From Sphagnum compactum (lineage: Eukaryota): a stretch of 64,000 bases of DNA. The stretch spans positions 8,422,213 through 8,486,212 of the forward strand of contig OZ234493.1 in assembly GCA_965153455.1 (NCBI GenBank), read 5' to 3'. Numbering within the stretch: the first letter of the stretch is position 1; every line of letters begins with the position of its first letter. The position numbers and the translations under genes are program-made. The notes under the pieces are model-generated. The model was not told the DNA's origin, did no database searches, and was given only the letters and a program-made list of their open reading frames with translations. Of this stretch, positions 242-34,699 are shown one piece after another.

Positions 242-2384
242 TGTTTGCATCTACCACTTACGGTTGTAAAAGCAACTTCTATGACTTGCAAGAGAGTTTC
301 TTCCAGCTCACTCACCCACCCTGATCCATGATGGTTGTGGGCCTTGAGATTGTGAACATGAATATCTCCATTTTCTTTCAGCCAATTCCAAAAACAATGG
401 AATAAGATAAACTCATCTTTGTCCTCCTCTCTCCAAACACAAAGATACAGGCTCTCTCTTTTTCTGGATCCAAATAGAGTCTGTTGTATAGCCTCCTGTG
501 TTGACAAAGTGTATGTGAGCATCAAGTTGCTACACACCAGTGTTGGGAAGTTCTTTGATTTTGATAATAACTGCTGGATTGGGACCGGCTCAGTAAGCTA
601 GGTGAATGAGTTTCTTCCACAAGGTGCAATAAGCCAGGTCTTTATTAACATAGCTTTTGCAAAAACTTTTCCTTTTGGTAAATGCTAAGGGTGTTCAATT
701 GAGAACATTCTGAAACTCTAGTGCTTACAACGGGCATTTACCAGTACCTGCATTGTTTGTGAGCCAATGCTCAGTAAAGTGGCTATTCTTGGTTCATAGC
801 TTCCAATATGCTGGTCGTTCTGGCCAGATTCCTCAGCATGTCATTCGACACGAGCTGCTATGGTTAACGCTGGGTCTGCCCAAATTCCCCAACATGATTT
901 GGGACAAGAGCTGCCATCAATAGCTACAAACATAGCTATAATGTTCATCAAAGCCAGTGTGGCCTGGCCAGTATTGTGCGCTGCCAGTAGACACAGATGG
1001 GTTCAAAATTAATAGAGAAATAAAATCCACATAACTATACTACTTCACAGCCGGACATGTAGCTTAAAGTTAATATGTTACAGTTTCACTTGCATCCTCA
1101 CTGTTTCTGCAATGAGGTTATTGCCCAGAACACAAGTTGGGGCTTATACATCGGGCAAGACATCAGTGTGTACCTTTTGCACAAAGAACAACCTTTCCTG
1201 TCTGGAAGTGAAATGACAGCATTCTCTTATCCATGTACACCTCATGAGGATAAGGAGGCAGTTGTCAGTAACTGAAAGCTTCACAAAGGTGCTGCTGTAC
1301 ATGTTATCAGAATGACATTTCTACCATGAATAGCAGCTCTCTATAAAGTAGTTAACTACTCTACAACCAGGGAATGCAACCAACAAATAGCTAATAATCC
1401 AGGAGTTTACAGTCTGAGACCAAGATAATTTAAGACAATTCCTGTGACTGACCTGCAAAAAAACAATTGAGAGAAACTCTTCAAGTGAATGTGTGAAGAA
1501 TGCTCTGGAGCAATCGTAAAGAAATTACTAATACTAAGAGAGAACTGAAAACGTACAAAAAAGCAACTCCATTAATTTATTATAAGGCCTTCAAAGGTCC
1601 TGTGAGGAAATAATGATGATCATCAACAGCCTACAAACTACACACCCATGCCCAATTGAGCCTTCACAAGCAGGTAATCCACTTATGATTCATCACGGAT
1701 GCATGGCCATACATAATACCAGCAAGACCCGATTCCAACCTTTCTCCCATATATATCACACTCAAATGACTCACAACGCTTGCAACCTCCCGTTTCTCTC
1801 TTTTAACTTTCACCTGTACAGATTCGTGGCACTTTCAACGAGGCTCCAGCCAGTGGAGATGAAGTGGCCTTGGGCCAAAATTTCAGTCTTGCACCTCCCC
1901 TTGCAGATAGGTAGGGAGCCTAAAAACTAGTGCCTTGATTGAGAAACATATGTGTTCTATTTTTTATTTGCCGATACATTCAGAAGCAACCTGCCCTGCC
2001 CTTTTGTACAATTCCCTAAGCTTTAGCTGCATTTGCTAAAGACCAACACTTGCACAGTTCTCTACAATTTGTGGAGAGAGATTCACACCAACCAGTAAAT
2101 TGCAGCAGACTTCTTTCACTGGCCATTAAAGCCCTCCTGTGCAGGTGGCCAGAGTTGTGCCTACAACATACACTTGTGAGCTTAGTTCCTCCTCACAAAC
2201 TTCAAAAAAGTTTGCCATCTCTTATGAAACCTCAATGGCACACAAAAACCTTGAATTTGATGTTAAGAGCGCTCAGAGCTTGATTAGGGCTGAAATGGAT
2301 ATAAACCACAGCAGGGCCCACCATCATAGCCCCCTCACCCTGACAACTTCAGGCAGAACGGGTACAAAGCCCAAAGAGACCGTG

Positions 2385-5300
2385 TCACTCTTTCTCTCCC
2401 TCTGGAGACAAAGTGTGCATGAAAGCTTGGCCACCAGAGATACCCCCATACACTAGCCCATCTTTGCTGCTGCTGCTTGCTGAGGGGCTCCCCTGGTGGC
2501 TTCCTCCAATTTGCACATTGACACCCATTGGGAACGGCTCCTACAACAGCCATTCCACACTCTCATTGGTTGCTATCCAGTTGGTTACTTCTTTCACCTC
2601 ACATTGTCCAACTTTCCCACACAGAGAAGTCAGAAAAGGATCAGAATGGACCAATTCCAGATACAACTTCTCAAAATGGGTCTAAGTCTAGCACTGATTA
2701 TTGTTACAATTGCATTTTTCAGGGGGGTGTGATGGCAAAAGACCAACCAATCAGACATTAAAAGGCCTGTAGAAAGTACTGGTAACATACTAGGCAGCAG
2801 GTCAGTTGAATCCATAAACAGTACAAGGCCCACATGATTAATCATTATCATAGCTCATAAGAACTATAGATGGCTGTCTTTTGAGCACAGGTTGAAGATC
2901 AGCTTACATGTGAAAAAGGGAGCACCTAAACAACAGCAAAATATTATAGGTTTCTAAGGTTTCCTGATTGTGGAGTGAAAGTGGATTGCTACAAAGCTGC
3001 TGCCAGATGTGAGTGCATTCTTTGCCAGAGTAGTGAAAGAAAATGTTCTTTAGCAAATCAAAATCCAAGTAACTGTAGCCAAGGTGATAGATAGCTACCA
3101 TATGTATGACATTGTAGAGAAAATTCCACACTTTGAGAGAACTATTGTGTCACTTCCACCCAAACCAAAACAAACACAATGACAATGAGTGCAGTCATAA
3201 CCTTGAGAGCACCACCCACAAAGTATCAGACCATCACCTTGGTAGATATTTAACCATGGGCAAAATAACGGACAAAGGAAGATGGAAGAATCAGGGGTTC
3301 CAAGAAGCATTCTTGACAGCAAACTGTGAAACAGCAAATGAAAATACAACCACCCACTGCAGAAGCCTTCTCTTTGATAATGGAGTCTGCATCTTACGTC
3401 CATACCATACCAAGGAACTTCTGTGCCCAAGTGGTTATCTCAATAGCTCACAAACCAAAAGACTTGTCTGACAATCAGCTAGTCTACCAAACCAGATATC
3501 TATTCTGAAGCAACTTGAAGTCAAGATTCCCATAACCCTCTTTTCAATACCAAAGAGCATGCATTATTGAACTTTGATGGACATATGACCTACATCCTAA
3601 TAAGAGTTAAAAATTGTCTCCATAATCTAAAAAGCAGGACTAATGCAAGAGAAGCAGTGGGATCAAGCACTCTCAAAGCAACAGAAACAGAGATCCCCTG
3701 CCAGTAAGCAGCAACCCACAATGAAAGCACATGCTCTTAAAGACACATAAAACTCACAGGTGAAGGCAGTTGCTAATTCCAGCAGTTGGGGGTACCTGAT
3801 CTCCAACATGTGGCCCCTCTGAATGGAAAAGAATAGGGCGGCATCGCTTATCCTCGTTCATCAGACTGGAGTTCTGAAAATGTGCAACAAGGGCAGCTTT
3901 GCCCTGAATGCGTGCATATGCAAGAGATGCAACTTTCTCACTGTTGAACTTCTCCCATTTTTTCCCATTAAAGGCCTGCCAGTGAGAAGCAACCAGTCCT
4001 CATTAGCCTGACACAGAAAACATGAGCACAAATTCCAGTATGTGCACACATTTCATCCTTCTCTTGCAAGCAATATGTGTTCACATAAGGTAAAACCAAC
4101 ATAAGTCATGAGTCCAAGGCCCCCAGGCAAGTTCCTAAATGTAAATGTCCTGAGACTGGTCCATGATTTGAGGTGTGGTGCAAACCCACCTGATAGAATG
4201 GTACGATACGGGAAGGTGCTATCATGTTGATGAAGGCATAACCCACATTACACTTATTCTGCAATCATGTTCCCCAATCCCTCGCCTTAGCAAAGATGGA
4301 CAAATCAGTGACCCAAATGAAAAACACAAGGTTTGTCCTGTTTTGGTAGCAACTTCTGCATCCTCATGTCTTTTGCATCCACTAACATTGACCAACACAG
4401 ACCACACTTCTACCTTGAAGTCAATTGGCAGATAAATGAAATCGTAAGTTCCACGGTGGTTTTCATCAATGGCTGCAAGCAACATCTTCGATGTGTATCT
4501 GCAAAGCAATCAAATGAAGATCAACTGCCTAGCATAGGTACCTAGTACACTGCAACAATATAGAAACAGCTTTCACAGCTGTGCACAGAAAATGGTCACC
4601 CAATTGAATGCATAGGCTTGTCAGACTACCAAACCCAAGAGTCCAGAATAAGTCACACAGATACAAGAAGAATGTCCTGAAAGGAACTTACTTGTTAGGG
4701 ATGTTTTTTATCATTAAAGTTGTCCTAGGGTCCTCCCCACGCAATATACGGTCCAAGTCCAGTTGATACTGTTTCTTGTTCTCTGCTTGAGCAGTTAGGC
4801 TCTCACCCCTGCGACTCCGACCATGATCATTCAATCCATCCATGGAGCCTGAGACTGGTCCCAGAAGTCCTCCATTCACAAAAATGCGTGCACGTTGTTG
4901 TGGTGACATGACACTCAGACTTGGGGAAGAAGAACTGTGCTCTAAAGCAGGCACCATGTTCATCAAACCATGGCTTCCTCCGATATTGATTGCATGGGCT
5001 CCACTGTTTCCACCGATACCCATGCTTCCACCTGACCCAGAACCCATCAGTGATGATGACTCAGGTGACTCACCTAGATAGCTATGCCGCCTCTCAATTT
5101 GAGAAGGCTCCCCTGCTGGAGCTGAACCAATGTGGTGGCGGGACAAAATTGTGTTCATGAGATTCCCCTGGGATGCAGAGTATGCATTAGATTGCAAATG
5201 CATCTGGCTGTTGTGACTGAAGGACTGTCCAACGGATGATGTATTTGGCCAAAGCACTGGAGGGGAACTTTGTGTGTGTTGGTGGTATGGGCTTGGGTTT

Positions 5301-8300
5301 CCCCACAAAAACTGGTTACCAGACAATGAACCATTCCCATTTGAGCTTGAGCTTGGAAAAAGATATGCCCCTGTACTGGAGACACCTGGCAATGGAACCA
5401 CTCAGAAGAGATTGAATTAACAAGAGGTTCTCAAGGGACAGTGTTAATGCTCTTCCCTCTTTTTCCAGACATGTGCTCTGACATTTGTGTGTGCAGGATC
5501 TTAAGCCCCATACTTGTTGAGTGCCTACAAGCAAGCAAGCAACCTTCAACAATCCTAGAAATAAATTATAATACAACCACACATACAAGTGGCAGCTCAA
5601 AGATCAAGGTGTTTTCAGAGCCAATTCAGAGGAGAAGGAGTAGCACACCTCGGTTGGCATGATCTAAGGACGAGTTGTCATTCAGGCTCCCACTGATCGA
5701 GTGCTGCAAACGACTTCCTTCTCCAAACCCTTCACGGGATCTCAAGGCTGCTGTACTGGAACCAGAAGTACCAGATACTGAAGAAAATAAGTGCCCAGGA
5801 TTTATAAGGCCCTTGCCATATTCTGGGAGAGATTGTGGGTGGTGAGGAGGCAAATGATGTCCCAAACCTATGTGCCCTAGGGAATGGCCAGCTTCCATCT
5901 GGGTTGATTGCGCCACATGACTGCCAATAGTTCCAACTCGAATGGGCGAAGAGATATGAGGAGGCAAGCTGACAGATCCACTCAGAGGCTTGTTGCCCAA
6001 TGTTTGAAAATTCCCAAGTGGTAAAGAGTGATGCATTGGACGTAATGACCCATTTTCAACTGTGGAGCTAACAGAACCCCATATGGTAGGATGGCCTGGA
6101 AGGAATGACAAAATAGCAAATTCTTTCAGTTGTTGATCCCCCAATATTGCCAGAAAAGTTTAGATGCTCTCTCTGACGCCATCTCTAATAAATCTTATAA
6201 TTCCCAGCAACCTGATCCTCTGGTAACTCCTACTTCTCATCTGCATTGGAACCTATCGTGCACATGAAACAATACAAGAAGAAGAAAATGTTTGATGTAA
6301 ACCTGGTGGAGAGCTGTTCAGCGGGGAGTGAGATTGCTGACGAATGGGTCGAATTTCATCTGGTTCTACATCCTGACTTAGCTGCTGCAGCAAACTGATT
6401 CAAAAAAAGTATAAATCAGATACTTCTCTTGAAAAAGGCACATATAAAATTTCAATCTCTCATACCCAGCAGATTGTCTCTCCTATTTCTTCCATCCAAG
6501 GATAAAAGAATAGTAAACAGAAGCAAAACATGACAGTTTCCTGGTGGCTGCAGAACTACTTCTAGAACTAGTGGACTGGATGAAATTATCTGGAGCAAAT
6601 GATCATTGAGTGAGCACTCAGAGAAATCCCATCCACAATCTACTCCATCCGGCCCAGTTGATGCTGTGAGAATATAAATTGTCAGATTGAGGCACACTTG
6701 CTTAAGAAAACTATGGCATGCTCTTGCTTAACCTCACAGAGGCTGGAAATCATCCTCTTGATCCTTTCACCATGATATGAAGCACATGATCCAACTATCC
6801 AGCAAAAAATTATAAGCCGACAATAGCAAACACCTGTGCTTCATATGGCCTTCGCAATTAGCATCCAAACATCGACCTATTTCGACAACGCCTGCATGTG
6901 CTTGGAAGAAGAATGCAAAGCAAAGTACCTGCATCCCCCATGAGGGCTACTGCCTTGTAGGCTAGTTCACTGAAAGACTTAAGAAGGGGACCCGGTTTTC
7001 TGAAGATGACCATGTTTACCTCTTCCAATAATTATGATACATATATGGCCCTATATCATGGGTGGGCTTGGATATGGCAAATATTAGACACTGAATCTCA
7101 TAGACAGTTCAGAATATCTGACACAGATCATAAGAACACAATGGAAGATCTGCAATGTCTGGCAGTAGACATGGAACGTCAGACACACCTGCGCCGGGCC
7201 CCACCAGGGCGACTAGGCTCCAGCTTGATACGCTTCCCAGCTATGTCACTCCTGTTCAAAGCACGCAGAGCTGCCTCAGCTGCCCTCACATCATAGAACT
7301 CAATGAATTTGTGATGCCGCTTGTGTGGTGTCTCTCGTATCTGCAGCAACATGAAAAATTAAAAATGGACAAATTGCTTGCTCTGAGCACTGGAAGGTCT
7401 TGAAGGCTTCAGAGCATCATTGTCCACAAAGACCAAAGTATAATAAAACTATATGTATCTTTCATAAGAATAGAGAAATCTCCATTCTCACAATGAAGAA
7501 GAAACAGCAAGGCTAACACGTCGTCAGGAAGCCACAGAAAGAACCAAACAAGGGGAGACAAAAAACAAACAAAAAACAAAAAACACACACCAGTATGAAC
7601 AAAAGTGCCAGTCTCACACCTGTTCAGGGACCATCAACAGTAGTATGTATGATAGTGACTTAACTATCACAACTTCCCCACTGTTTTCATCAGCTCCCTA
7701 CAGTGGGTAAAGGCCGGTGACAAGCACCATTCTATGAACTGAGTTTCTGCTGCAATTCCGGAAGCAACAGGAAGACTCAGCCATACTACTGGCTAGCAAC
7801 AGACCCCACCACAAAGACCAGACAAAGAAACAAAGAAAGACAGAAAGGGAAAAGAACAGGGAAAGACTAAGAACAAGTGGGCTTACAGAAAGCTCCCCAC
7901 TTACATGACCCGAAGCAAAATCATTCTGAAAATGCCAAAAGCGGAAATTCCAAACAGGAATTTTTCTTTAAGAACCAACCCTCTAGTTCTCTTTAGAAGA
8001 ACTTTTAAAGGGTAGCCTTTTGCCTTCAGAAAGACAATAAGACTGACCATCTGGAAGACAAAAAACTCCTTACAACTAAGTCTCAAGAATCTGTAAAATA
8101 GACTATTGATAACCCCCAGCTTCGCAGTCATTGAGATATTGGAATGAACATGAGGCATTCTAATCATTTCAATACCTGCATACTCTGGTTGAGAGCATTT
8201 GTCAAAAATGTCACAGGATAAACCTTGAGGACTCTGTCTCACAGTTAAATCCAAGAAATTACAAGAGAAGCCTTTAGACGTCAATTCAACTCACAAGAGG

Positions 8301-11300
8301 TTTTTGGGTATATGCCGCTACCAAAAGAGTCTTGGTTAAGGTACATGAAGTTCTCAAAATCTGGAAAATCAGGAACAAAAAGATCATCCACAAACCTACA
8401 AACCAAGGACAAACTATGAAGCACAACAGGACATGTGTTACTCTTCAAGAGACGCTTAATAAAATCAAATTCATAGGTGAAGAGATAGAAATTAGCCAAA
8501 TAGACCGCACAATTTGTACCCATGGGGATACCAATGCATTGTCTATAAACACCCTGACCAAAACAAAGAAACAAATTGTCTAATAAGAAATCCAGCCAAG
8601 AGATCAAATCTGAAGCCTCCGCAACTTTGAAGCTATGAAGATTTTCAAACAAATTGATCTCTGCTTTATTTTTCAGCCACAAAAACCTAAAATTCAAAGC
8701 TGTTTGAAAACTTCAACCATCAAAAACTTAAAACGATGAAGCTTCAGCATCCAATTAAACACTTTATTTATCAGAACTCTCATACGAGCTTTTAGATCCA
8801 CTAGGTCAATTTTAGTGTATAGAGTTGAGAAATCAAAAGACTGCAACAGAAGTGGGGAAGCTTTATCAATTTCAGATCTCGAACGATTAAGATTATTTAT
8901 TACCTCCACCACTCCTGTAGAGTCATTGAGAATCCAACTACTATCACAAGGAACATCTGCTTTTTTGAGTTTAGACACCCAAAGGTCATTGACCGTAGGA
9001 ATCATAGCTTTGAAGAAAGAACACAGCCACTTAGAAACATCACTCAGAGAAGTAGAGCTGGCTGCACAGATAAATCTAGGTTGAATTGGTTTTTTATGAA
9101 ACTTCCAAACCACACAAAGAAACGGGAGACGAGGGCCACACTTAACAGTTTTAAAATTATGAGCCTTATTAAAAGAGAGATGAAAATTCAGAATATCAGA
9201 TTGGGCAAGATTGGAGACCACATATGCACCAACAGGAGACTTAAGCTCAGAGAAAACAGAAGAAACATAAAACTTTTTACAAACAAACAAAAAGTTGTTA
9301 CAACATTTATCCATGTAAGTAATGACAAAGGACCATTGGAGAATCTTTAGGTGATCCAGATCTCCTCAAGGAACAGACAAAGAAGAATCAGAAGAGGTTT
9401 GAACCACGAAGGAAGCACGAGTCCTCTTCTGTACAAACAAAAGAACTTTGGCTTTCCACTCACTTAATATCCCTTGAACTCCTAGAAGCTCTTCTTGCTT
9501 GTTGACAAACTTCTTAAGACCTTTATCAATAGCTTCTTCAATAGACAACATAGACAAGAAGCCACTTCTGAACTTAGTGCCCCTAGAGAAGAGTTCAATT
9601 AGGCTGGGCCTTGAAAGGATATTAAGGTTAGCAGAAATAACATGACCATGATGGGAATCAACAAAACTAGGGAAACGAAAACAAGCACAACCAGAGTGAA
9701 TAATTTTATTAACTTGAGAAGCACGAACAGATCTTCCAAACGCCCCATAGCTGAAAAACTCTTGACCAGAAGTTTTGACATATTTCCAAGCAACTGAGGG
9801 ATGGGACCAAAATCTTCTAACAAAAGGAGGAAGACAATCTAGCACAGAAGGAAGGTTTAAAATGGAAGAGAGATTCAAACCATCCATACGAGAAGAAACA
9901 AAAACAGAGATAATGAGATCTCTGCCTAGGAAAGAGGCACTTGACGAGAAAGAACGAGGAACATTTCTCTCAATAAAAAAGCTCAGAATTTTAGACAATT
10001 GTAAAGCATGGCCAACATCAAGACTGAGAACAGAAGGAGAAAACTCAGACAGCAACAAAAGCATATGAACCAAATTCTTGGTCTTATAAGAAGGCTTCAG
10101 GGCATCATTGTGCACAAAGACCAAAGTATAATAAAACTATGAAGCAAATGACCAGAAGTGTGGATACAACCACTTCACCATCAGATATGAATAATGACTT
10201 CAACTGAATGCCTTACTCTGTTCTAAAACACTCATCCACACAAATGGAACACAAAGAAAAGGCAGCTTACCTCTTTCACCTCTCCATAACCACCAAAAAT
10301 ATGTCGAAGGTCATCATTGGATACAGATGCATCCAGATTAAATACCACTAGGGTACCCTGATTGACATCTTTATCTGAAGGATTATCCTGCACTCACAAC
10401 ACCAAACAACAGTATGATCCTCTGTCAGTGCTGGATGCAAGACTTCAGTCAACAGACTATTCCAAGTTTGAATGTATGAATCAACAATCTGGCAGTGTCT
10501 GAGACACAGACCAACACTGTTCTGATGCCAATGGTACCTTGGGAATTGAGAAATGAATGTCCAATTTGCGTCGCCTGAGTGGTTTATTCTGGAGGGCACG
10601 CATGGCACTGCGTGCTGCCCGGATGTCATAGTATGAAATCATTACAAATCCACGATGCTTACAAGCTGTGTAAAGTGTGCGAATTGCACCATATTGCTGC
10701 CAGAGAAGACACCACAGCTCAAGTCATTACAACAACCAGGAAGAAGAGAGCAGTAAGAACAAGAATAGGGTGAGAGCAGGACTGAGGTGATCCTAAGAAC
10801 AAGAATAGGGTGAGAGCAGGACTGAGGTGATCCTACTTCGAAAAGAGTTCGCAGTTCTGTATCCTCAACATTGCTGTTAATATTCCGGACAAAAAGAGTC
10901 CTAGATGGATGCTCTCCATAAGGATGCTCGCCAGCTACAGATCCTGCAGCATTTGCTGCTGCTTGCTGGCCTGCAGCTCCTCCTGTGATGCTGTCCCCTC
11001 CTCGATTGCCACTCATGTACAAACCCATTGGATCCTGTAAGTCACCCTCAAGTTCCATGCCTCCTCCACTGCTGAAGAGGTCAAAATCCTCTGTCTCTTC
11101 CCCATTGTTTAAGCTCATGATGCCATCAAAATCATCAGTCACACCAGCCAAAAGCTCCTCCTCATCATCTGGGAGAAGGTTACCAATGGTGTGTAATTCA
11201 AGTTCCTGCAATGTACTAAAATCATCATCCCCCTCGAGGTTCCCAATCAAGTGCGAAGCAGGAGTATCCAATGACTGACCAAAGCCTGTGTCTGAACCTG

Positions 11301-11792
11301 ATAGCCTCACTGCAAAACAAATCCTTGGAAAAGTTATGTTGCTGGAAGTGCAGGCACTGCAAGTTTGCACACAGACATCTCAACCCACCAGAAATATATA
11401 CATACCAGACAAGACCTGATGAAGAAGATCTTACATTTGTCTTGGAAGAAAGCTGGAAAAGTGGCAGATAAGCTCCTGGCATCAATCCCACCAGCATACG
11501 AGTCCAAATTCTCAAGGTTCCCATTGATAAGAGGAGACGAGGACAAGCCTGTGATTTCCCTCATTCCACCTATATCGCTTGTGTTGCTCCAAGAGTAGGA
11601 TGAAATACCAGACTGCATTCGTTCTTGTCCAACAACCCCCCACTGATCCAAATTCTGCATCACACTGTGTGGACTTCCCTTTGCCCAATCCTGATTACTT
11701 AGAGACCATTCCTGGTGCCAGGAATCCACATGCTGCCCCATGCCAGTAGGAGGATTTGAGTATCCAGGAGGTGCTCGACTCCCTGTATCCAT
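2385..11792 (-). CDS. AML: MEI2-like RNA-binding protein (RRM1, RRM2, C-terminal Mei2-type RRM3), 12 coding exons, ~993 aa
   Basis: Exons (minus): 11792-11435, 11309-10837, 10696-10538, 10387-10271, 7340-7189, 6394-6303, 6095-5649, 5385-4692, 4498-4414, 4258-4190, 3975-3796, 2540-2385. All introns GT-AG and the frame is preserved. Motifs: GEHPYGEHPSRTLFVRNINSNVED (RRM1), IRETPHKRHHKFIEFYDVRAAEAAL (RRM2), RTTLMIKNIPNKYTSKMLL...YLPIDFKNKCNVGYAFINM...KWEKFNSEKVASLAYARIQG (RRM3). The start codon choice is less certain than the internal exons. Confidence 0.93.
7402..7452. repeat. 51-bp direct repeat, copy 1 (copy 2 at 10090-10140)
   Basis: gaaggcttcag[a/g]gcatcattgt[c/g]cacaaagaccaaagtataataaaactat; 49/51 identical to 10090-10140. 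Confidence 0.95.
7607..7793 (-). other. Putative structured RNA domain in the 3' UTR of the Penelope-like element
   Basis: Manual folding of the minus strand: closing helix GCCAGU/ACUGGC enclosing five hairpins; loops containing AGGGA and UCCCU are complementary. Confidence 0.55.
7901..10089 (-). pseudogene. Disrupted reverse transcriptase ORF of the Penelope-like element
   Basis: One in-frame TGA at 9368-9366 (ORFs 10124-9366 and 9314-8694 share a frame) and frameshifts near 8710 and 8284. Terminal TAA at 7903-7901. Confidence 0.85.
10090..10140. repeat. 51-bp direct repeat, copy 2 (copy 1 at 7402-7452)
   Basis: Same sequence as 7402-7452 with two substitutions. Confidence 0.95.
10754..10835. 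repeat. Perfect 40-bp tandem duplication in MEI2-like intron 2
   Basis: taagaacaagaatagggtgagagcaggactgaggtgatcc at 10754-10793 and 10794-10833. Confidence 0.95.
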
Positions 11793-12778
11793 TTTGTCAC
11801 TTTTCCCTACTCTAAGTTGCAACCTGCCAAGGAAACAACTAACTGTAAATGCCCCCACTGAAAGTTGACCTAAGAACAAAGACATATGTTGTCCATCGCC
11901 ACGAATGCAACAACGTCACAAAACCATCAGAAAAAAGCTTAGCAAAATAGACCGGAGATACTCATTTCAGGCAATTCTACGATCAGCCATGGAACCCTAG
12001 CCCCAGCCAAAGAGACTTCGTTAACACGGGATGATGCAATCCCTCGCAGTGAGTCAAGGACTACAATCAAAACAATGAGGCCAGCCGGTACATAGTCCCT
12101 CGCCACAAAGTTAAAACAACATACAACGGCATCGACAAGCAAAACCTCGAAACCCATTTCCTCATCAGGCCACAACACATTCAGGCACCCCAAAAAATGG
12201 AATCTTCAATACCGACAAGTTCTCCGAATCCACACCACGATGTAGTAGAGAAGGAAAAACCAAACCAAAGCGTAGGTAGTAAGAACCTAAGGACATCCTA
12301 ATCTATAGGTAACGGATAAGGTTCAGGAGTTTGCTAGTCATCTAAGTAGGTAGAGGCCAAAAGTAACCAAAAAAAAAACCCATCAGCACATACATATAAA
12401 TATCTCAAGCTGCTGCTGCTGCTGATTCAAAATCAGAATCACAAAAAGCATCATCTTGTCTTCCTCGGACTCGGATCCGAATTAGCAAATGAGACACCCA
12501 AAACAAAACGAAACCAAAAAAAACCATAAAACATACCATCATGGCAAACAAACCCCTGACACAGAGAGACATATAGACGTACAGAACAGACAGACAGATA
12601 AGGGAAGAGAACAGCAACCTCGGAGAGCAGCAACCGGAGAGGAAAGTAGGTACCTTTTTACTCAAAGAAACCATCTGTCACGGCAGTTGATGGAATAATG
12701 CTCCCGGAGCTCCAGTCCTTATCGAAAGAAGAAGGACAGCCATAGGTGAAGAGCAGGAAAAGCAGCAGCCGTAATGAA

Positions 12779-13504
12779 GAGAGAGAGAGAGAGAGAGAGA
12801 GATAAAGAGAGAGCAGCAGCGAAGACAGGAGAACAACAAGCGCTAGCGCGAGTGCGTATGGGGATTTTTGGTTGCGGGAATCGAGAAAGCGAAGGGAAGA
12901 GGGGGAGAGAGGGGGCGGGGGGGGGCGGGGGGGAGGAGACGGGGGTGCGAAGGGAAAGAGTGCGCGTGCGTTGAGAATGCGTGCGTATGGTGGAGAGCGT
13001 GGTTTTGGGGGTGGTAAGTAAATTTGGCATCGTAATGTACGCCATCCATTCAGGTACCTAGTGGCTTAGCTTTGGTTTTTCGCTACGGTTTTTTTCTTTT
13101 TTTTTCTTTTTTTAAACTACGTTTGTTCCCCGTTTTTCGTGTTCTCACGTTCCTTACGCGTTTCCCAAACCCAAACCAAACCGAACGGAACGAACGAATA
13201 AATACACCATGTGCTACCTATCTATCATTCATTCATTCATTCATTTATTCATTCATTTGTGCTTCTTCTCCTCTTTTTACTACTGCTACAACTACTGTTG
13301 TTCCCGGTTCTTTTTGGTTTTTGTTCTCACGTTCCTTACACCTTTTCCAAACCAAACGAACAAACACCACCATGTGCTTCTCCTCCTTCTTTTTCTTTCC
13401 CTTTCCAACCAACCAACCAACCAGCCAACCCAACCCAACCAACCGTCCCCCTCGCTGCGCGATTATTATTGCAAAAGAAACAGGCAAGCAGGCAGGCAGG
13501 CAGG
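12779..13504. repeat. Microsatellite and G-tract cluster around the MEI2-like 5' end
   Basis: (GA)n ~12779-12802, G runs 12901-12945, (TCAT)n ~13226-13256, (AACC)n ~13406-13444, (CAGG)n ~13481-13504. Confidence 0.85.
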
Positions 13505-18499: not shown

Positions 18500-20043
18500 T
18501 AAATGAAGCAATGACAATAAGTTATGCACCTTCATGGATTTTTGGGTCAAATTTGGAGACAACTAAGTTTCCTATAACAACTCTCGAATATTTTTAAGAC
18601 TACCTTCATCATGGTTTACAACATCAATTTTTGTTGGCTTCTAGTTTAATACTATAACGTTATGGGGCATATCTACATAGTAGCATTGGTCATTTTGTGA
18701 CATGTAGATAGGTAGATCTTCAAATCTTGAATGTTGATATGTTTCAACTATATGGAAAAGTTTTACAATAATAGATTCCTCCCCCCATCAAAGATACTTT
18801 AAGTTTCTTCCTTTGTTGTGTAATCTTCTTCATTCCCTACATTGCTCATGTTTGTTGTAGTGTAAACCTTTGATGGTTTACTCTTGTTATCCATTGCCTT
18901 TGGGTTCAAAGGCCATATACATGTAATTCTAAACCCAGACTTGATGTTTTGTTTTATGAATGATTGCTTTATGTCTCGGTCTACCCATCCAGCTATTTTA
19001 CTCGGTTCCATGTGATTATTTCTAGACATAGTTGCATCCTTGACCTTTCTAAATGTTGTTTTAAAAGGTTTGAAATAAGACAAATCTAATGGTTGTAATG
19101 CATGTGATGTGTGTGATGGCAATGTGATCATGTTTAACCCAAATGTTTTTGCTTATTCTATTGCTTTGTAAGGTAACACGGTTGCCATGTCCATCCAAAA
19201 TTAACAAGTGTTGGTTGTTGAAGGACACTCCACTTGGAACTGATTTGTTAAAAAAAACTAAAACTCTTTAAACAGGAAAATAATCATCCATGTTTTTGTT
19301 TTTGTTTTTTGCATTGCCATACAAGTACCTGGTTTGCAAAGTTTAATGTAATCATCCTTTAATATCTCACCTTTGAAGATGTAAAAACCATATAGAACAC
19401 CCTTGCAGCATTGACTACACAATTTACAATTAACCATTCCTAAGATTTTGGGATGATGCTGTAAACTGCATTAGATCATTTCCTAGCCAAAACTTTTGCT
19501 CCAAACTACCTACTAGTTTAAATCCCTATTTCAACAAAATTCCATATATGATCAAAACTATAATTATGTTAGTTATACAATGATTACAAATTGATGTAGA
19601 AAGAGTTGCATGAATTAGGTGTCATCCCCAAAGTTTTACAAACTTATAATCTTTATGCATATCGTATGTTAACTTCTAGATGTTTACGTTTGAACCAATA
19701 TCACCAACTATTACATGGTATTGCATCCTGGAATGATATAGCTTTTGTCTATGTTAACTTTGCAACTTTCATCTTCAATTGTTGTAGACCAATGGATAGT
19801 CCACATTCCTGCATTACTAATGTTCAATGTAATCACAGTTGTATCTTCTTCTTTTGTAAGCACACCTCCTAGCCCCATCTTCTCGAATCTAGTTATTCCA
19901 TTTAGGTGGTTAACAAGGGAGTTCATTGGGATGTTCCATGACTTGCTGACCCTCCTTATGGAATGTGTCCCTCTCTCAATAACATCCATTACTTCTTCCA
20001 ACACTTCATTTGTCCACATACCTTTTCTAGTTTTTGAAGGCAT
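18500..20043 (-). mobile_element. Decayed pogo/Tigger-like (DDE_1) transposase
   Basis: N-terminal psq-type HTH (KGMWTNEVLEEVMDVIERGTHSIRRVSKSWNIPMNSLVNHLNG) and the pogo-family motif LPSHTSHALQPLDLSYFKPFK; many stops and frameshifts. Element ends not identified. Confidence 0.85.
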
Positions 20044-22088
20044 TCAATTCAACTGTGGTGTTGATTTTTTGTTTTGTGGGTCAATAACAAGGGGAAGATT
20101 TTCCATGTTAATTACAAGGTCTATTGCTTGCAAATCCAACATGCTACTTTGTCTCCTATGAAAGACTATCAAGTTCATGATTGCATATCTCTTCCTAATC
20201 CCAGCTTTAGCAACTTGTTGGAGTGCGTTTTAACCCCACCAAAGGGATGTTTTTTTCTTCCTTGTAAACAACCCAAGAATCCAAAAAGCGTAGGAAATTT
20301 GGAAATTTTGCTATAGCATGTTCTAATATTGCTACAATAGAGTATGATAACTTATAAAATTCTACAAAATCATCCCAATCTAAATCATCTTCTGTTGTTG
20401 TGCATGCAGTGGGGAGAAATGTGTAGGAACGATTTATATATTTAACTATTTTCTAACTTTTTTCAAGCTCTTTGATGCAACATTTCGACCTATGGATTTT
20501 TTAATCGAACGGTAATTCAAATTTTTTGGAACCTTTGATTGTAAATTTGGTCTACAAGTTCAACTTATATGTCTAATGTTGATCCCTATTCTACATGCTT
20601 TACTTTCACCTTTTCCAAATCTATTTTAGAACCTAATTTTTGTTCTTTTACATGATTTACTTTCATCTTTCGTTCTACTTTTGAACATAGCTTTTGTTCT
20701 CTTATTTGCTCTACTTTCTCTTTTAGACCTATTTTTTGCAAGTAAACTCTTAGACTTGGACTATTGTTCTTTACATGTTCTACTATCATTAGCAAATCAG
20801 AATTCCTCAACATTACAATATTAAGAACTAAGAATTATAAGCAGAGTTGGAATTGTTTTTCTACCCTTGTTCATAGAAAGGACATACTTGGAGCCCAAAT
20901 TAGAAGTAGAAAATGACGTACACATTTGATGTAAGTTTTGTTGCAATTTAAGTTTTGAATTATGCCTCCTTTTTTTTGGAAGGAAAGAATGCTCAATTTT
21001 TATGCATAGTCAAAATCTTTGAAGACTCTCCTCTAGGGCTAATAAATGTGGTGCCCTGAATGATTCAAAGAAAGGATGTCCTTTGATGATTCTTGTGCAT
21101 TAATTGTATCCTTGTTAGGTTTAAAATATTAATGAGCAATTTCATGCATTTTAATGTGAGTTTAAAACCCCATAACCAAACAACCAATTTTTTATTTGCA
21201 TTTTGCTTATGTTGGTTCTTTGAAAAATAGTTAAACCCACCCAAGTATATGCATTAGAATGGGCCGGTCCTCTCCCATAACCAAACATGGCTACATATAC
21301 AATGTGTTAATCCTTTCCCATAACCAAACATGATTACATATGACATTGTGCCTTTTTTTTTTGGCTATTTCTTTTTCCCATGCCCATAACCGCACACACA
21401 AAAAAAGATTTCATTTGGATTACATGAAAAGACCGAACATACTTTTTCAATACTACGCATTCGATCATAGGGTTGCATTCAAACGTTTGCACAAAGGACC
21501 GCGACCATTCACTGGCGTTGGTCTGCACAAGAGGGGTGTTCGGTTATGATTAAATTCACCCCATCTTGACTTTAGTATAAATCAAAGCTTGAAATACTAG
21601 TGTGACTCATATGTAAGGGACCAGGATTATTTTTCATTATTATTAATTTTTGGTGATGGAAATCTTTGATTGGCCAATCTCAAAAAAAATTAATCAACTT
21701 TGGATAAAGTGGGATACTATTGGGAACGTGAGAATCCTTTTTGAAAACTCAATGGGAACAAAATGAGAACACATTTGGAACAACACAAATCCCAACACCA
21801 CCTCCCCCTTGGGTACTTGCTGGCTCATCTCATTGGTTGTCAAGAATTTCTGTGCCTACCTTTGTTCCTTATCATTTTTAGCCTAGGCAATTACAAGGGC
21901 ACAAATTGTGGGACATGTATAGTAGTGTGATTTATGTTCATTAATTGTGGGGACCCCCAAAGCTTAATATATGTTTTTTTTGGGTACCTAATGGGCCTCT
22001 TTGATTTATTTCCCCATTATAAATATATTCTGAAAATTTGGGAGATTGCTTAATATAAAAGTTCCATTCTAAAAACATGGAAACCCAA

Positions 22089-22290
22089 AATTGGCCCACC
22101 TATATAGGTTGTAAGAGGACAACGTTAGGCAAAGCATATGGGACAAAGTGAGGTGCTATTCGGACCACCACATTGAGAAATTTGGGAACATGTTAGGAAC
22201 TTATTGGGGAACGAGTACAGTGGGAACAACAAAAAGCCCAAAAAAATCCAAAACCCCCCCCCTCCTCCCACCCAAAAGAAAATGTGAAAT
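22089..22290 (+). repeat. Dispersed GGGAAC-rich repeat family A
   Basis: Core ttggcccacctatataggt...caaagcatatggga(t/c)aaa.tgaggtgctat...gggaac. Related copies at ~21700-21900, ~27210-27500 and inverted at ~32570-33440. Confidence 0.75.
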
Positions 22291-22999
22291 TTTGAAAAAA
22301 AAAAAAAAAAAACATTTTCAAAGCAAAAATAATTTGTGAATGAAAGTAGAGAATTTTATTGGAATATTCCTTTTCGAGCTGAAATCTTCAATTTTAATTA
22401 ACTATTTGACAAACATGTGTTGAGATTGCACTTGTATTATGGTAGTCGAAGTTTAGTTGACATGATGACAATAATTAACATGTCGAAGGGCACAAATAGG
22501 ATTTTGAACAATGATGTTATCATATTGGAGGTGTAATATAAAGACGATTTTATGAAGGATTGATGGACTTGGAAATGTTATTCTTTTTGTTTTAAAAAAT
22601 GAATTAAATATGTTTTTTTGCTCTATGGAACAAAATACATATGTTTAAGGAGTGTTTGGAATTTGCATTTGAAAGAATGTATGGAAGGTAAAGGTATGGA
22701 ATGGCATTGAAGTCTTTTTTAATTATGTAAAAACTACATGTTATTATAGAGAGACCGACAAACCACATCTCGAGAACTTGATGGGAACACAAAAAAACAA
22801 AAGTTCCTCTTCCACACTCCCCCCAAAAAACCTAAAAGAAAACATTAAACCCTTCCCCAAGCTTCTCATTGGTTGCATGAAATTTTTATTTCCAAAACAA
22901 TTGTCAAATTTTATTTTTTAAAATTGGCCAACAATGAAAGAATCCATTGCAAAGGAAAAAGAAACACATCAATCATTCACCAAAGTGGGGATCACCACA

Positions 23000-25500: not shown

Positions 25501-26149
25501 ATGAATGTTGACTAATTATGGCTAATAGTTTCCACTAGGGTTGGCTATAGATGTAACTAAAGGGCTTTTGTTATAAAACAATTGCATGTGATGTTTTGGT
25601 GCCCACTTGCATACTCTTGCCATATTATTCTTCTTATGAATCATCATAACAAATCATTTATTTTCTTTTTTATAATCGTTATGGACCTTCACAAAGTTAC
25701 ATTGTTTACCTAGCTAGTTAGTTTGCAAGCTATCCTTATGAGCGAATGGGAGGGCAACTCCATTCTTATTGGCTTCACCACCATTTAGATTTGCCCTCTC
25801 CCCTTTTTTCATAGAACCACTACCTCCCTATGTAGGAAACTTCATTCTTGATGTCACTCATTTATTTGCCTTCCCTTTATAACTAACAAGTTGAAAACAT
25901 TGTTTAATATGGTGTGAGGAATCAAAACAAAACTTGGAAGGGATGAAACAAAAGTCATAGTTCGCAAGTATTGCCATCAATTTATTAGTGGTTTCATTTT
26001 TAACCACCAATGATGTCTCCCACCCTTCCCCAACTTCCAATGTTACATAATAGTGTTGTTTCATCGTGTCGATGCTTTTTTTTGTCAAAACTCAATATGG
26101 TGTGAAGTTCAAAAACTATTTTCCCAATTGAAATTTTGAAAGCAAACCA

Positions 26150-26520
26150 AAAATTGGAATCAAAAGGTGAATGTTTATTTCTTATAAAGTTTACCATCAC
26201 TTAAATAATTTTAAAAATACAACATCTTAGCCCTAACAAGTAATTAAACATAATCTTACCACCCTTACATTATGATTTAGATCAGCAAATAAAAAATTGA
26301 AAATAAAATATAAATGTTTATTTCTTACAAAATTCACAATTAGTTAATAGTATTGCAAATATAACACCTTAGCCCTAACAAACAATTAAACACAATCTTA
26401 CCACCTCTACATTATGATTTAGATTAGTAAACCAAGAATTGAAGACAAAAGGTGAATGTTTATTTCTTACAAAGCTCACAATCATTTAATAATCTTGCAA
26501 ATACGACATTTTAGCCTTGA
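26150..26520. repeat. Tandem repeat, ~143-bp unit, ~2.5 copies
   Basis: aatgtttatttctta.aaa...cttagccctaacaa...aatcttaccacc..tacattatgatttaga recurs. Confidence 0.85.
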
Positions 26521-27209: not shown

Positions 27210-27500
27210 TTGGGCCATTTATATAGGTTACAATAGTAGAACTTAGGGCAAAAGATATGGGATAAAATGAGGAACTATTGGGAACATGTTGAGGAACACA
27301 TTGAGAACCTTTGGGAAACATGTAGGGAACTCATTGAAAACTTGATGGGACAACATTGAAAACACATTGGGAACAACAAATTTCCAACACTCCACCCTTT
27401 CCCCAAAAGAAAAAAACCCTAGGCCTCCTTGGGTGGATGCTACCTCACTTCATTGGTTGCAAGAATATTTTTTGCCTACCTATGTTCTTTGCCATTTTTG
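27210..27500 (+). repeat. Dispersed repeat family A copy
   Basis: tatataggtt...caaaagatatgggataaaatgagg.actattgggaacatgtt..., similar to 22089-22290 and 21700-21900. Confidence 0.7.
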
Positions 27501-34685: not shown

Positions 34686-34699
34686 AATTATTATTATTA

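What the first reader, a model, noticed from the sequence alone, without database searches (positions are those of the whole stretch)
7607..7793. Multibranch RNA with possible kissing loop and alternative fold in the PLE 3' UTR
Seen on the element sense strand: GCCAGU (7793-7788) can pair with ACUGGC (7612-7607), enclosing five hairpins. (A) long stem CUGAGU/ACUCAG plus CUGUUGC/GCAGCAG. (B) GGUG/CACC. (C) CCCACUGU/ACAGUGGG with loop AGGGAGCUGAUGAAA. (D) UGUGAUAGU/ACUAUCAUA. (E) CUGUU/AACAG with loop GAUGGUCCCUG. Loops C and E can pair (AGGGA/UCCCU). A mutually exclusive long hairpin (AGGGA..AACAGUGG / CUACUGUU..UCCCU) is also possible. The domain is flanked by U-rich tracts. Established: this clade reportedly lacks the canonical hammerheads of other PLEs. 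Inference: a candidate novel ribozyme, or an RT-recognition domain for a telomerase-related RT.
Basis: partly seen in the sequence, partly recalled or inferred. Interest (0 to 1): 0.75.

Follow-up and report, generated by a model that had tools for sequence, protein, structure and literature searches.

The report
Rearranged hammerhead-like module in moss retroelement
The stretch is a decayed copy of a conserved, folded RNA module in the tail of a very abundant moss Penelope-like retroelement, and its conserved parts are those of a hammerhead ribozyme laid out in a rare rearranged order, which could explain why this retroelement group seemed to lack hammerheads.

Summary
The fold energy is modest (z = -3.0) and equally good on the other strand. 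I fetched 121 related copies. Covariation supports hairpins A, B, C and D. It does not support the closing stem, hairpin E, the C/E kissing loop or the alternative hairpin. A different long-range helix, P1 (7785-7782 with 7647-7644), closes the domain.

The element is a 5'-truncated, frameshifted Penelope-like element (PLE) of the N-terminal-endonuclease (Naiad/Chlamys) type. It lies in an intron of a Mei2-like gene and is flanked by a 51-nt duplication. Its 3' part is a high-copy repeat shared with short non-autonomous elements (T2).

The most conserved letters are GUC, GAAAC and GGGAG-CUGAUGA-AGUCA. They supply all hammerhead core nucleotides in the order S-G-C, the "type-SGC" permuted hammerhead of Eckert et al. 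2023. No Rfam family matches.

There are three weaknesses:
- Stem II is only 2 bp in the main family.
- Stems I and II show no compensatory changes, because my search fixed one side of each.
- No cleavage data exist.

The window's own copy has lost stem II and part of B. I rate it a candidate permuted hammerhead module (about 0.42). The main rival is a non-catalytic tag recognised by the reverse transcriptase (about 0.35).

The parts
7456..10089 (-). Decayed, 5'-truncated Penelope-like element copy (about 2.6 kb) inside an intron of a Mei2-like gene
   Evidence: RT-like frames. Homologues with N-terminal GIY-YIG plus RT. In-frame TGA at 9368-9366 and two frameshifts. The family's common 3' end is at 7456: 54, 47 and 45 contigs have loose ends there in the three DNA runs.
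10090..10140 (-). Upstream copy of the 51-nt flanking direct repeat (target-site duplication)
   Evidence: blastn: 51 nt, 96% identical to 7402-7452; intron sequence.
7402..7452 (-). Downstream copy of the 51-nt flanking direct repeat
7644..7785 (-). Conserved structured core of the 3' UTR module, from P1 5' strand to P1 3' strand (idx 9-150)
   Evidence: On A2 (24 copies of four subfamilies) 87.4% of cells are paired against 34-44% with slid partners. Covariation score 0.196 against 0.162 +/- 0.008, reached by 0 of 500 shuffles.
7782..7785 (-). P1 5' strand, UAUG; pairs with 7644-7647 (CAUA)
   Evidence: Pair U9-A150 reads CG:9, UA:8, UG:1 on A1 and CG:12, UA:5, UG:3 on A2.
7775..7780 (-). 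Hairpin A outer stem, 5' strand CUGAGU; stem III 5' side in the hammerhead reading
   Evidence: 94-95% paired with 7739-7744.
7773..7774 (-). Predicted cleavage site, GUC|U, between 7774 (C17) and 7773
   Evidence: By analogy only. This position is C in 79 and U in 3 of 82 copies tabulated, never G. No cleavage data.
7769..7773 (-). UUCCU (family consensus UUCCC): stem I 5' side, complementary to GGGAG at 7694-7698
   Evidence: 93-99% of cells paired; one-sided C/U changes only.
7749..7768 (-). Inner hairpin of A; the linker between stems I and II in the hammerhead reading
   Evidence: The top three pairs are kept in 20-23 of 23 rows with letters, with compensatory GC to AU and UA to CG changes. 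The bottom pair G26-C45 is kept in only 12 of 24.
7739..7747 (-). GAA-ACUCAG: hammerhead GAAA plus stem III 3' side
   Evidence: GAA is intact in 19 of 24 rows of A2.
7712..7732 (-). Hairpin B, peripheral; 8 bp in the consensus, degraded in the window
   Evidence: The window differs from the family consensus at 7731. T2 elements have about 65 nt of other sequence here.
7677..7707 (-). Hairpin C. Its stem CCCAC(UG)/(CA)GUGGG would tie the far ends of stems I and II; its loop carries GGGAG-CUGAUGA-A-(GUCA)
   Evidence: Stem 87-93% paired. The 23-mer is identical in subfamilies whose flanks differ, but it was the search pattern.
7687..7693 (-). CUGAUGA, the hammerhead core box
7682..7685 (-). Stem II 5' side. 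The family has GUCA; the window has AACA and so has lost it
   Evidence: Nearly all contig depth in all four runs reads the consensus letters at 7684 (T>A) and 7685 (T>C). These two positions were N in my search pattern.
7648..7671 (-). Hairpin D, with conserved loop UAAGUC (UAGUCA in T2)
   Evidence: 4 of its 9 pairs show compensatory changes on A2, for example GC:9, AU:8, GU:5 and UA:13, CG:6.
7620..7640 (-).
   Evidence: 81% paired; 4 of 5 pairs depart only by unpaired cells.
7607..7612 (-).
   Evidence: 78% paired, no compensatory change. No complement in T2.

Best explanation
The stretch is one dead copy of a roughly 190-nt RNA module that sits in the 3' UTR of a very abundant moss Penelope-like element and in short non-autonomous partner elements.

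Shown:
- The module folds on the sense strand into a multi-helix domain: P1 closes hairpins A, B, C and D.
- Its most conserved 'loop' letters are exactly the hammerhead core.
- Hairpin A carries CUGAGU-C|UUCC(C) and, on its other strand, A-GAA-ACUCAG.
- The loop of hairpin C carries GGGAG-CUGAUGA-A-GUCA.

Inferred: in intact source copies the C loop docks into the opened interior of hairpin A. GGGAG pairs with UUCCC (stem I). GU(CA) pairs with the letters just before A-GAAA (stem II). The outer stem of A is stem III. The stem of C holds the far ends of stems I and II together. This is the S-G-C block order of the 'type-SGC' non-circularly permuted hammerhead, and the RNA would cut itself after GUC, between 7774 and 7773. 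It would serve the same unsettled processing role that ordinary hammerheads have in other PLEs. The whole folded module is also what the partner elements borrow in order to be copied.

The window's own copy has lost stem II (AACA instead of GUCA) and two pairs of B, so it is most likely inactive.
For: (1) Block order and register: the S block starts at 7780, GAAA at 7747 and CUGAUGA at 7693 on the minus strand. All core letters are present: C3-A9, G12-A14, the A15.1-U16.1 pair and C17. One spacer A lies on each side of stem II (spacers 1,1 in 50 of 55 sites).

(2) A strict S-G-C descriptor (stem III 6/6, stem I 5/5, stem II at least 2) is met at 51 sites, and at 55 sites in 52 of 121 loci if stem II is not required. 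54 of the 55 lie at the domain. The same descriptor finds a mean of 0.01 sites per dinucleotide shuffle of the 64-kb window; 2 of 200 shuffles had any.

(3) GUC, UUCC, GAAAC and the stem III strands were not part of my search pattern. They are kept in subfamilies (M, M2, T3, T2) whose linkers and flanks differ.

(4) Letters 44-45 pair better with the unselected letters 109-110 than with the inner-hairpin partners. C45-G109 holds in 18 of 24 rows, and 44-110 reads A-U 12 plus G-U 10 of 24. Against that, G26-C45 holds in 12 of 24 and 27-44 in 18 of 24.

(5) Where block G reads UGAC, stem II reaches 4 bp with GUCA. One search shows TGAC in 6 of 24 A2 rows (L028, L048, L068, L080, L103, L106), and 8 of 24 rows pair at both outer stem II positions. 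L027, L029, L032 and L062 read the same by eye.

(6) The published type-SGC description matches: a helix tying stems I and II, and 0-44 nt between stem III and that helix. Here that gap is 31 nt and holds hairpin B (PMC10085705, sections 13, 14 and 18).

(7) Context: canonical PLEs carry hammerheads near the 3' end. This clade was reported to lack them, yet some members were tagged 'HHR_core' or 'HHR_half_core' (PMC8557442).

(8) The 3' part is a high-copy repeat. Summed contig depth is about 20,000-35,000 in the 3' part, 1,200-8,000 over the body and about 30-40 in the flanks in run X1; the tool warns this is not a copy number. It is also present in RNA-library contigs.
Against: - No compensatory change supports stems I, II, III or the tying helix: 0 double-sided changes, and all 500 shuffles do as well. 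One side of stems I and II was fixed, or nearly fixed, by my search pattern, so this is untested rather than refuted.
- In the main, autonomous family stem II is only G-C plus G-U: 49 of 55 sites have 2 contiguous pairs and none has 4.
- A relaxed descriptor demanding 4 bp finds only L027 and L106 at the domain, and is no better than chance (3 sites against a mean of 2.3 in 40 shuffles).
- Position 10.1/11.1 would be an A.A mismatch or two 1-nt insertions.
- The linker between stems I and II is about 16 nt, not the published ~3. It forms a hairpin that itself shows covariation and competes for the stem II strand.
- Copies with a changed G109 show no compensation at C45.
- No pile-up of 5' ends at 7773 appears among the loose ends listed. 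That list is cut, and contigs cannot show RNA ends.
- No Rfam model matches. I do not know whether Rfam 15 holds a type-SGC model.
- There are no cleavage data of any kind.
Confidence: 0.42

Rival explanations
1. The module is a non-catalytic recognition tag. The folded 3' UTR domain (P1, A, B, C, D, with conserved loops) and the shared 3'-terminal motif are what the element's reverse transcriptase/endonuclease binds to start copying at the target. The short T2 elements carry the same tag to hitch a ride, as SINEs do with the tails of their partner LINEs. The hammerhead-like letters would be a relic or a coincidence.
For: - The module is shared by RT-bearing copies and by 350-400-nt elements with no RT within up to 2 kb upstream: 11 of 11 T2 loci with long flanks.
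- T2 copies have their own target-site duplications (about 12 nt in L040, about 20 nt in L088).
- T2 and the main family share the terminal motif GGAGNUUUCUCU...AGAUA.
- Depth is strongly biased to the 3' part.
- Covariation supports the non-pseudoknotted fold, including the inner hairpin of A that competes with stem II.
- The most successful family has the weakest stem II.
Against: - It does not explain why the conserved single-stranded letters are exactly GUC, GAAA and CUGAUGA, in correct register with complementary arms. A strict descriptor match is expected 0.01 times per 64 kb by chance.
- It is not exclusive with catalysis.
- No PLE RT-RNA recognition element has been defined in the passages I read.
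Confidence: 0.35
2. One reading: a new ribozyme class or switch made of a six-pair closing stem, five hairpins, a C/E kissing loop and a mutually exclusive long hairpin.
For: All segments are present in the window. The MFE z-score is -3.0. The kissing pair is 93% paired on A1.
Against: - The closing stem is 78% paired with no compensatory change, and hairpin E is 81% paired with none.
- UCCCU and the 3' strand of the alternative hairpin are absent from T2 elements.
- Two pairs rest on the window's private AA at 7685-7684, present in 1 of 20 rows.
Confidence: 0.03
3. Nothing functional: a repeat whose stems and motifs are chance features carried along with a successful element.
For: The energy z-score is the same on both strands. 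Most copies are near-identical, so conservation within the main family says little.
Against: - Compensatory changes occur in B, D, P1 and the inner stem of A across subfamilies (0 of 500 shuffles reach the observed score).
- G-U pairs favour the sense strand.
- Motifs are kept in subfamilies whose flanks differ.
Confidence: 0.05

Closest known systems
Type-SGC (non-circularly permuted) hammerhead ribozymes; HRIMA-1 motif and variants (Eckert, Friedrich, Weinberg and Weinberg 2023, PMC10085705; I read sections 7, 13, 14, 15, part 1 of 18, and searched passages)
   Same: Same 5'-to-3' order of blocks: S (cleavage site), G (GAAA), C (CUGAnGA). All core nucleotides are present. Stem I and stem III arms are in register. 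A fourth helix ties the outer ends of stems I and II. The gap between stem III and that helix (31 nt) lies within the published 0-44 nt.
   Different: - The published examples came from metatranscriptome contigs that also hold hairpin ribozymes. The passages I read name no retroelement or plant host.
- Here the stem I to stem II linker is about 16 nt and forms a hairpin (published: typically 3 nt).
- Stem II is 2 bp in the main family.
- 10.1/11.1 is A.A.
- Extra helices (P1, B, D) surround the core.
- Cleavage is untested.
Canonical type I hammerheads in the pseudo-LTRs of Penelope, Neptune, Nematis, Hydra and some Chlamys/PLE-X elements (Cervera and de la Pena 2014, PMC4209133, listing and abstract only; Craig et al. 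2021, PMC8557442, passages)
   Same: Same kind of host element and the same place, near the 3' end. Same core letters.
   Different: Those have the block order C-G-S with a three-way junction, and Rfam models and RNAmotif descriptors find them. This one is found by neither. Craig et al. report no canonical motif in Naiad and most Chlamys elements.
Retrozymes and other non-autonomous partners of PLEs (bioRxiv 10.64898/2026.07.22.740005, passages)
   Same: Short non-coding elements that share the ribozyme-bearing terminal region of a PLE and presumably use its enzymes.
   Different: Animal non-LTR retrozymes are tandem arrays with type I hammerheads. The T2 elements here are dispersed single copies with target-site duplications and the rearranged motif.
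LINE/SINE pairs that share a 3' tail recognised by the LINE reverse transcriptase (recalled, not looked up)
   Same: An autonomous and a non-autonomous element share a structured 3' region and terminal motif.
   Different: That system involves non-LTR elements of a different RT clade. No catalytic core is involved.

Membership tests
Type-SGC hammerhead ribozyme | Blocks in the order S (site), G (GAAA), C (CUGAnGA) on one strand | tested here: met
   The S block starts at 7780, GAAA at 7747 and CUGAUGA at 7693 on the minus strand. The same order is seen in 55 sites in 52 of 121 loci.
Type-SGC hammerhead ribozyme | Invariant core nucleotides: CUGAnGA, GAA, the A15.1-U16.1 pair, and position 17 not G | tested here: met
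   All are present in the window and in the family consensus. Position 17 is C in 79 and U in 3 of 82 copies. GAA is intact in 19 of 24 A2 rows.
Type-SGC hammerhead ribozyme | Stem III flanking the site and GAAA | tested here: met
   6 bp, 94-95% of cells paired. It is almost invariant, so there is no covariation.
Type-SGC hammerhead ribozyme | Stem I directly after the site and directly before CUGAnGA, with covariation | tested here: inconclusive
   UUCC(C/U) against GGGAG is 93-99% paired. GGGAG was fixed by my search, so only one-sided C/U changes could be seen.
Type-SGC hammerhead ribozyme | Stem II directly after CUGAnGA and directly before GAAA | tested here: inconclusive
   59.6% of cells paired over 4 positions. 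It is 2 bp in 49 of 55 sites and 4 bp in none under strict rules. It reaches 4 bp only in UGAC-type copies. In the window it is 0 bp.
Type-SGC hammerhead ribozyme | Helix joining the outer ends of stems I and II | tested here: met
   The stem of hairpin C is 93% paired. Its 3' side was fixed by the search.
Type-SGC hammerhead ribozyme | Short (about 3 nt) linker between the stem I and stem II sides | tested here: not met
   About 16 nt, folding as a hairpin. The authors accept long insertions only if they fold as a hairpin (section 7).
Type-SGC hammerhead ribozyme | Site-specific self-cleavage abolished by mutating the core G | not testable with these tools
   The runs laid were contigs, which cannot show RNA ends.
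Canonical hammerhead (types I, II, III; Rfam models) | Three-way junction with block order C-G-S, G-S-C or S-C-G | tested here: not met
   The order is S-G-C. There is no Rfam match at E up to 10 on 7590-7810, none in 6500-13500, and none at E up to 1 in 16 related loci.
Penelope-like element, N-terminal-endonuclease (Naiad/Chlamys) clade | RT homologous to proteins with an N-terminal GIY-YIG domain, plus a CxC linker motif | tested here: met
   40 homologues at E of 1e-3 or better, the best at 1e-52. GIY-YIG lies within residues 27-199 in 5 of 5 scanned, and RVT_1 at 536-731 in one. GCACF is present in the window frame. The endonuclease part itself is missing from this truncated copy.
Penelope-like element, N-terminal-endonuclease (Naiad/Chlamys) clade | Long, variable target-site duplications; tandem or pseudo-LTR arrangements | tested here: inconclusive
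   A 51-nt duplication flanks the window copy. T2 copies have about 12 and about 20 nt. L046/L047 hold two motifs 657 nt apart. No pseudo-LTR is seen at the window copy.

The most novel reading that the evidence does not exclude
The PLE clade said to lack hammerheads (Naiad/Chlamys, which dominates many invertebrate genomes) in fact carries hammerheads in the non-circularly permuted S-G-C order, invisible to the standard descriptors. This moss family and its SINE-like partners would then be the first retroelement-borne, eukaryotic genomic examples. The published 'HHR_half_core' tags on animal Naiads would be the same thing.
Probability: 0.25. Interest if true: 0.85.

Novelty: new variant of a known kind. 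Interest (0 to 1): 0.68.

Why it matters
Hammerheads are a hallmark of Penelope-like elements, yet the largest clade seemed to do without them. That has been used to argue that the ribozyme is dispensable or parasitic.

A permuted hammerhead in the same place would reopen that argument. It would move the recently found non-circular permutations from unidentified metatranscriptome RNAs into a plant genome, with a clear genetic context: an autonomous element plus non-autonomous partners. It would also give a concrete, cheap test, a cut after GUC at 7774.

Even if the module is not catalytic, it is a well-defined, covariation-supported cis element for studying how a telomerase-related RT picks its template.

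Tried and rejected
- Canonical hammerhead (types I, II, III), hairpin-ribozyme loop A, twister, pistol, hatchet and HDV-like ribozymes were considered by eye, and Rfam scans found nothing.
- Box C/D or K-turn reading of UGAUGA...CUGA: no terminal stem complementary on both sides. Dropped.
- tRNA-like A and B boxes for a pol III SINE: no match by eye.
- Stem II formed by the inner hairpin of A, with CUGAUGA supplied in trans: rejected on strand connectivity.
- D-loop to downstream-loop 4-nt complementarity, and the palindromic apical loop of A as a dimer site: noted, but too short to test.
- MAFFT plus RNAalifold on T2 alone gave no usable consensus.
- nhmmer over all held DNA found 20 further, mostly decayed block-C copies. 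None shows compensation in stem I.
- The relaxed S-G-C descriptor with a 4-bp stem II was no better than chance.
- The Craig et al. supplement does not contain the motif strings, and no moss family is curated there. Sequence lines may be wrapped, so absence is weak evidence.
- The whole genome, earlier findings and the records behind the loci were not available.
- Run shares of about 0.5 of words in several coded organisms were not used to infer divergence or habitat.
Full report
**Coordinates.** I number the element's sense (minus) strand as idx = 7794 minus the window coordinate. Thus idx 1 is the G at 7793 and idx 187 the C at 7607.

**What surrounds the stretch.**
- The minus strand of 11380-7300 carries exons of a Mei2-like RRM protein gene, with a weak Pfam RRM_1 match.
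- One intron runs from about 10271 to 7346. An RNA-library contig joins 7340 to 10272, which is the spliced form (table 5c).
- Inside this intron, in the same orientation, lies a retroelement copy from about 10089 to 7456.
- It is flanked by a 51-nt direct repeat of intron sequence (10140-10090 = 7452-7402, 96% identical), which I read as a long target-site duplication.
- Its reading frame runs 10136 to 7901. It is broken by an in-frame TGA at 9368-9366 and by two frameshifts near 8700 and 8285.
- The laid contigs show that the family consensus has another letter at 9367 and one more base at 8281. These are therefore private defects of this copy.

**What the element is.**
- A read-through of the first 481 residues finds 40 proteins of 848-1348 aa (E from 1e-52 to 7e-10).
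- In 5 of 5 that I scanned, a GIY-YIG domain lies within residues 27-199. In one, RVT_1 lies at 536-731.
- With the GCACF (CxC) motif in the window frame, this is the permuted domain order of the Naiad/Chlamys clade of Penelope-like elements (PLEs) (Craig et al. 2021, PMC8557442, passages).
- The endonuclease part is missing here, so the copy is 5'-truncated.
- The finding therefore does lie in a PLE 3' UTR, 108 nt after the stop codon and about 150 nt before the element's end.

**Is the observed fold more than chance?**
- The energy is -66.1 kcal/mol, z = -3.0, with 1 of 200 shuffles as good. The complementary strand scores the same (z = -3.08).
- Energy is thus a weak argument, and the decision has to come from relatives.

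**Relatives.**
- No genome is held for the window.
- Public runs that hold the stretch include DNA runs of eight coded organisms and RNA runs labelled plant or moss metagenome.
- I laid four runs, all as contigs. In run X1 the summed depth was about 30-40 in the flanks, 1,200-8,000 over the element body and 20,000-35,000 over 7458-7873. The other runs showed the same shape. The tool warns that this is not a copy number, but it shows a high-copy family whose 3' part is much commoner than its body.
- Many contigs end their match at 7456, which is the family's 3' end. Many others diverge exactly at 7739 and 7784, the two borders of hairpin A.
- Nearly all contigs differ from the window at 7684, 7685, 7731, 7520 and 7810.
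They hold 123 motif instances.
- By flanks they fall into four groups:
  - M, the window's family: 63 of 101 instances with enough flank, 57 of them unique.
  - M2, a diverged sister family.
  - T3.
  - T2.
- In M copies the RT frame ends 205 nt before the motif, as in the window. 46 of 123 instances have RT-like DNA nearby.
- T2 copies have no RT within up to 2 kb upstream: 11 of 11 with long flanks.
- T2 copies share only about 350-400 nt with each other and have their own target-site duplications.
- T2 copies end in the same terminal motif as M, GGAGNUUUCUCU...AGAUA. T2 is therefore a short non-autonomous partner built almost wholly of this module.

| Helix (idx) | Cells paired | Compensatory change |
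|---|---|---|
| A outer stem (14-19/50-55) | 95% | almost none; nearly invariant |
| B (8 bp in the consensus, 62-69/75-82) | 91% | yes; one pair reads AU:9, GC:5, GU:5 |
| C (7 bp, 87-93/111-117) | 92% | one-sided only |
| D (123-131/138-146) | 88% | yes, at 2 pairs |
| E (154-158/170-174) | 81% | none |
| C/E kissing pair (95-99/164-168) | 93% | one-sided only; absent from T2 |
| Alternative hairpin (109-116/151-158) | 83% | one-sided only; absent from T2 |

- Two pairs, U94-A110 and A110-U157, exist only in the window because of its private AA at 7685-7684 (1 of 20 rows each).
I call it P1. It is 97.5% paired, and its first pair reads C-G in 9 rows and U-A in 8.
- For the revised model on A1, 90.6% of cells are paired against 37-47% for slid partners. 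The covariation score is 0.183 against 0.162 +/- 0.006, reached by 1 of 500 shuffles.
- On alignment A2 (24 copies including eight T2), the core of P1, A, C and D gives 87.4% paired against 34-44% slid. The score is 0.196 against 0.162 +/- 0.008 (0 of 500). Four of D's nine pairs change on both sides.
- These shuffle counts are not probabilities, because the copies are related. The slid controls and the several independent pair types point the same way.
- G-U pairs are 12-13% of paired cells, so the antisense strand would pair in only 75-78% of cells. That is the argument for a sense-strand RNA.

**What the conserved letters are.** Across all four groups three stretches barely change:
- AUGG-CUGAGUC-UUCC, the 5' half of hairpin A;
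- ACA-GAAAC-UCAG, its 3' half;
- CCCAC...GGGAG-CUGAUGA-AGUCA-GUGGGG, hairpin C with its loop.

The third was my search pattern, so its constancy is partly by selection. The first two were not selected. CUGAUGA, GAAA and GUC are the hammerhead core.

The register is right:
- GUC ends the 5' strand of a 6-bp helix, and GAA-A opens the 3' strand of that helix. This is stem III, with the A-U pair next to the core.
- The five letters after GUC (UUCCC) are complementary to the five before CUGAUGA (GGGAG). This is stem I.
- But GAAA comes before CUGAUGA and after the cleavage site. No type I, II or III hammerhead allows that order, and no Rfam model matched.

A full-text search found the explanation. 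Eckert et al. 2023 (PMC10085705; sections 7, 13, 14, 15 and part 1 of 18 read) describe and validate 'type-SGC' hammerheads:
- The blocks S (site), G (GAAA) and C (CUGAnGA) occur in that non-circular order.
- One side of stem I is linked to one side of stem II.
- An extra helix ties the other sides together.
- The gap between stem III and that helix is 0-44 nt.

Mapped onto our module, the extra helix is the stem of hairpin C, the gap is 31 nt and holds hairpin B, and stem II would form between the letters after CUGAUGA-A (GUCA, idx 109-112) and those before A-GAAA (idx 42-45).

**How well it fits.**
- A strict descriptor (blocks in order, stem III 6/6 with at most one G-U, stem I 5/5, position 17 not G) is met at 55 sites in 52 of 121 loci. 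54 of the 55 are at the domain.
- 50 of the 55 have the same one-letter spacers on both sides of stem II.
- In 200 dinucleotide shuffles of the window the same descriptor, with stem II of at least 2, gives 0.01 sites per shuffle.
- These sites are copies of one family and not independent. The point is only that the arrangement is not the kind of thing random sequence offers.
- Stem II is the weak part. In M and M2, block G reads CAGC (56 of 82 tabulated), giving only G109-C45 and U110.G44.
- 49 of the 55 sites have exactly 2 contiguous pairs and none has 4.
- Where block G reads UGAC, all four pairs form with GUCA. On A2 that is L028, L048, L068, L080, L103 and L106, and 8 of 24 rows pair at both outer stem II positions. 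L027, L029, L032 and L062 read the same by eye. Each of those old copies has some other defect.
- A relaxed descriptor asking for 4 bp is no better than chance (3 sites against a mean of 2.3 in 40 shuffles).
- On A2 the four hammerhead helices are paired in 94% (III), 93% (I), 60% (II) and 93% (tying helix) of cells. Not one change is double-sided, and every shuffle does as well.
- That is what one expects when one strand of stems I and II and of the tying helix is fixed by the search. It means the hammerhead-specific pairings are compatible but not demonstrated.

Two observations lean towards the hammerhead reading.
- Positions 109-110 were N in my pattern. Even so, C45 pairs with G109 in 18 of 24 rows, and position 44 (A or G) pairs with U110 in 22 of 24. 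The competing bottom pairs of the inner hairpin of A hold in 12 and 18 of 24.
- The three top pairs of that inner hairpin, which carry its covariation, can coexist with a 2-bp stem II as a hairpin insertion in the linker.

**The window's own copy.** It reads AACA where the family has GUCA. It has lost two pairs of B, and its ORF is broken. It fails the descriptor unless stem II is waived. Whatever the module does, this copy probably no longer does it.

**Mechanism, and what is inferred.**
- Shown: a conserved sense-strand fold; its sharing between an autonomous PLE and short partner elements; a complete hammerhead core in S-G-C order with stems I and III and the tying helix in register.
- Inferred: docking of loop C into hairpin A, and self-cleavage after GUC.
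- I put this at about 0.42. The role would be whatever hammerheads do for PLEs, for example trimming read-through or tandem transcripts to unit length. Craig et al. call that function unclear.
- The main rival, at about 0.35, is that the module is a non-catalytic tag bound by the RT. It explains the sharing with T2 and the covarying inner hairpin. It does not explain the identity and register of the conserved letters. The two readings can both be true.

**Novelty.**
- A full-text search for 'type-SGC' with 'hammerhead' returned only Eckert et al..
- A search for Penelope-like, moss and ribozyme returned nothing describing this.
- In Eckert et al., the words Penelope and retrotransposon occur once each, in a single reference-list entry.
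- Craig et al. tagged some animal Naiads 'HHR_core' or 'HHR_half_core' and curated no moss family.
- Papers outside the held library may exist. bioRxiv supplements, and PDFs among the supplements, could not be read.

Noticed in passing
window 11380-7300, minus strand: A Mei2-like RRM protein gene hosts the element in an intron (about 10271-7346), in the same orientation. An RNA-library contig joins 7340 to 10272, so the intron with its 2.6-kb insert is spliced out.
   Followed up: partly
window 10140-10090 and 7452-7402: A 51-nt direct repeat of intron sequence (2 mismatches) flanks the element. This is an unusually long target-site duplication, in line with the long, variable duplications reported for PLEs.
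   Followed up: partly
window 9366-9368, about 8281 and about 8706: The in-frame TGA and the frameshifts are private to this copy. Nearly all laid contigs read another letter at 9367 and one more base after 8281. The TGA is therefore a mutation, not a selenocysteine codon of the kind described in some Naiads.
   Followed up: yes
loci L018, L028, L040, L048, L062, L063, L074, L080, L103, L106 and others: T2 is a 350-400-nt non-autonomous element family made almost entirely of the module. Its start lies near AUGUCUCUUGAGUGCUAGCCA, it has its own target-site duplications, and it shares the main family's 3'-terminal motif.
   Followed up: partly
L046 2001-2023 and 2658-2680 (= L047): Two motif instances lie 657 nt apart on one contig. 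This may be a partial tandem (pseudo-LTR-like) arrangement of 3' parts.
   Followed up: no
L094, about 40-60 nt after the motif: One copy has AAACCCTAAACCCTA, the reverse complement of the plant telomere repeat, in place of most of hairpin D.
   Followed up: no
window 7763-7756 (apical loop of hairpin A) and its equivalents in the loci: The loop reads UUCCGGAA, a perfect palindrome, in the window. In other copies it reads UUCCAGAA or UUCUGGAA, which are reverse complements of each other. It could be an RNA-RNA pairing site. Not tested.
   Followed up: no
window 7636-7624 and T2 equivalents: UGAUGG followed within 1-3 nt by CUGA is kept in both the main family and T2, although hairpin E around it is not. 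This resembles a K-loop (box C'/D') by eye only.
   Followed up: no
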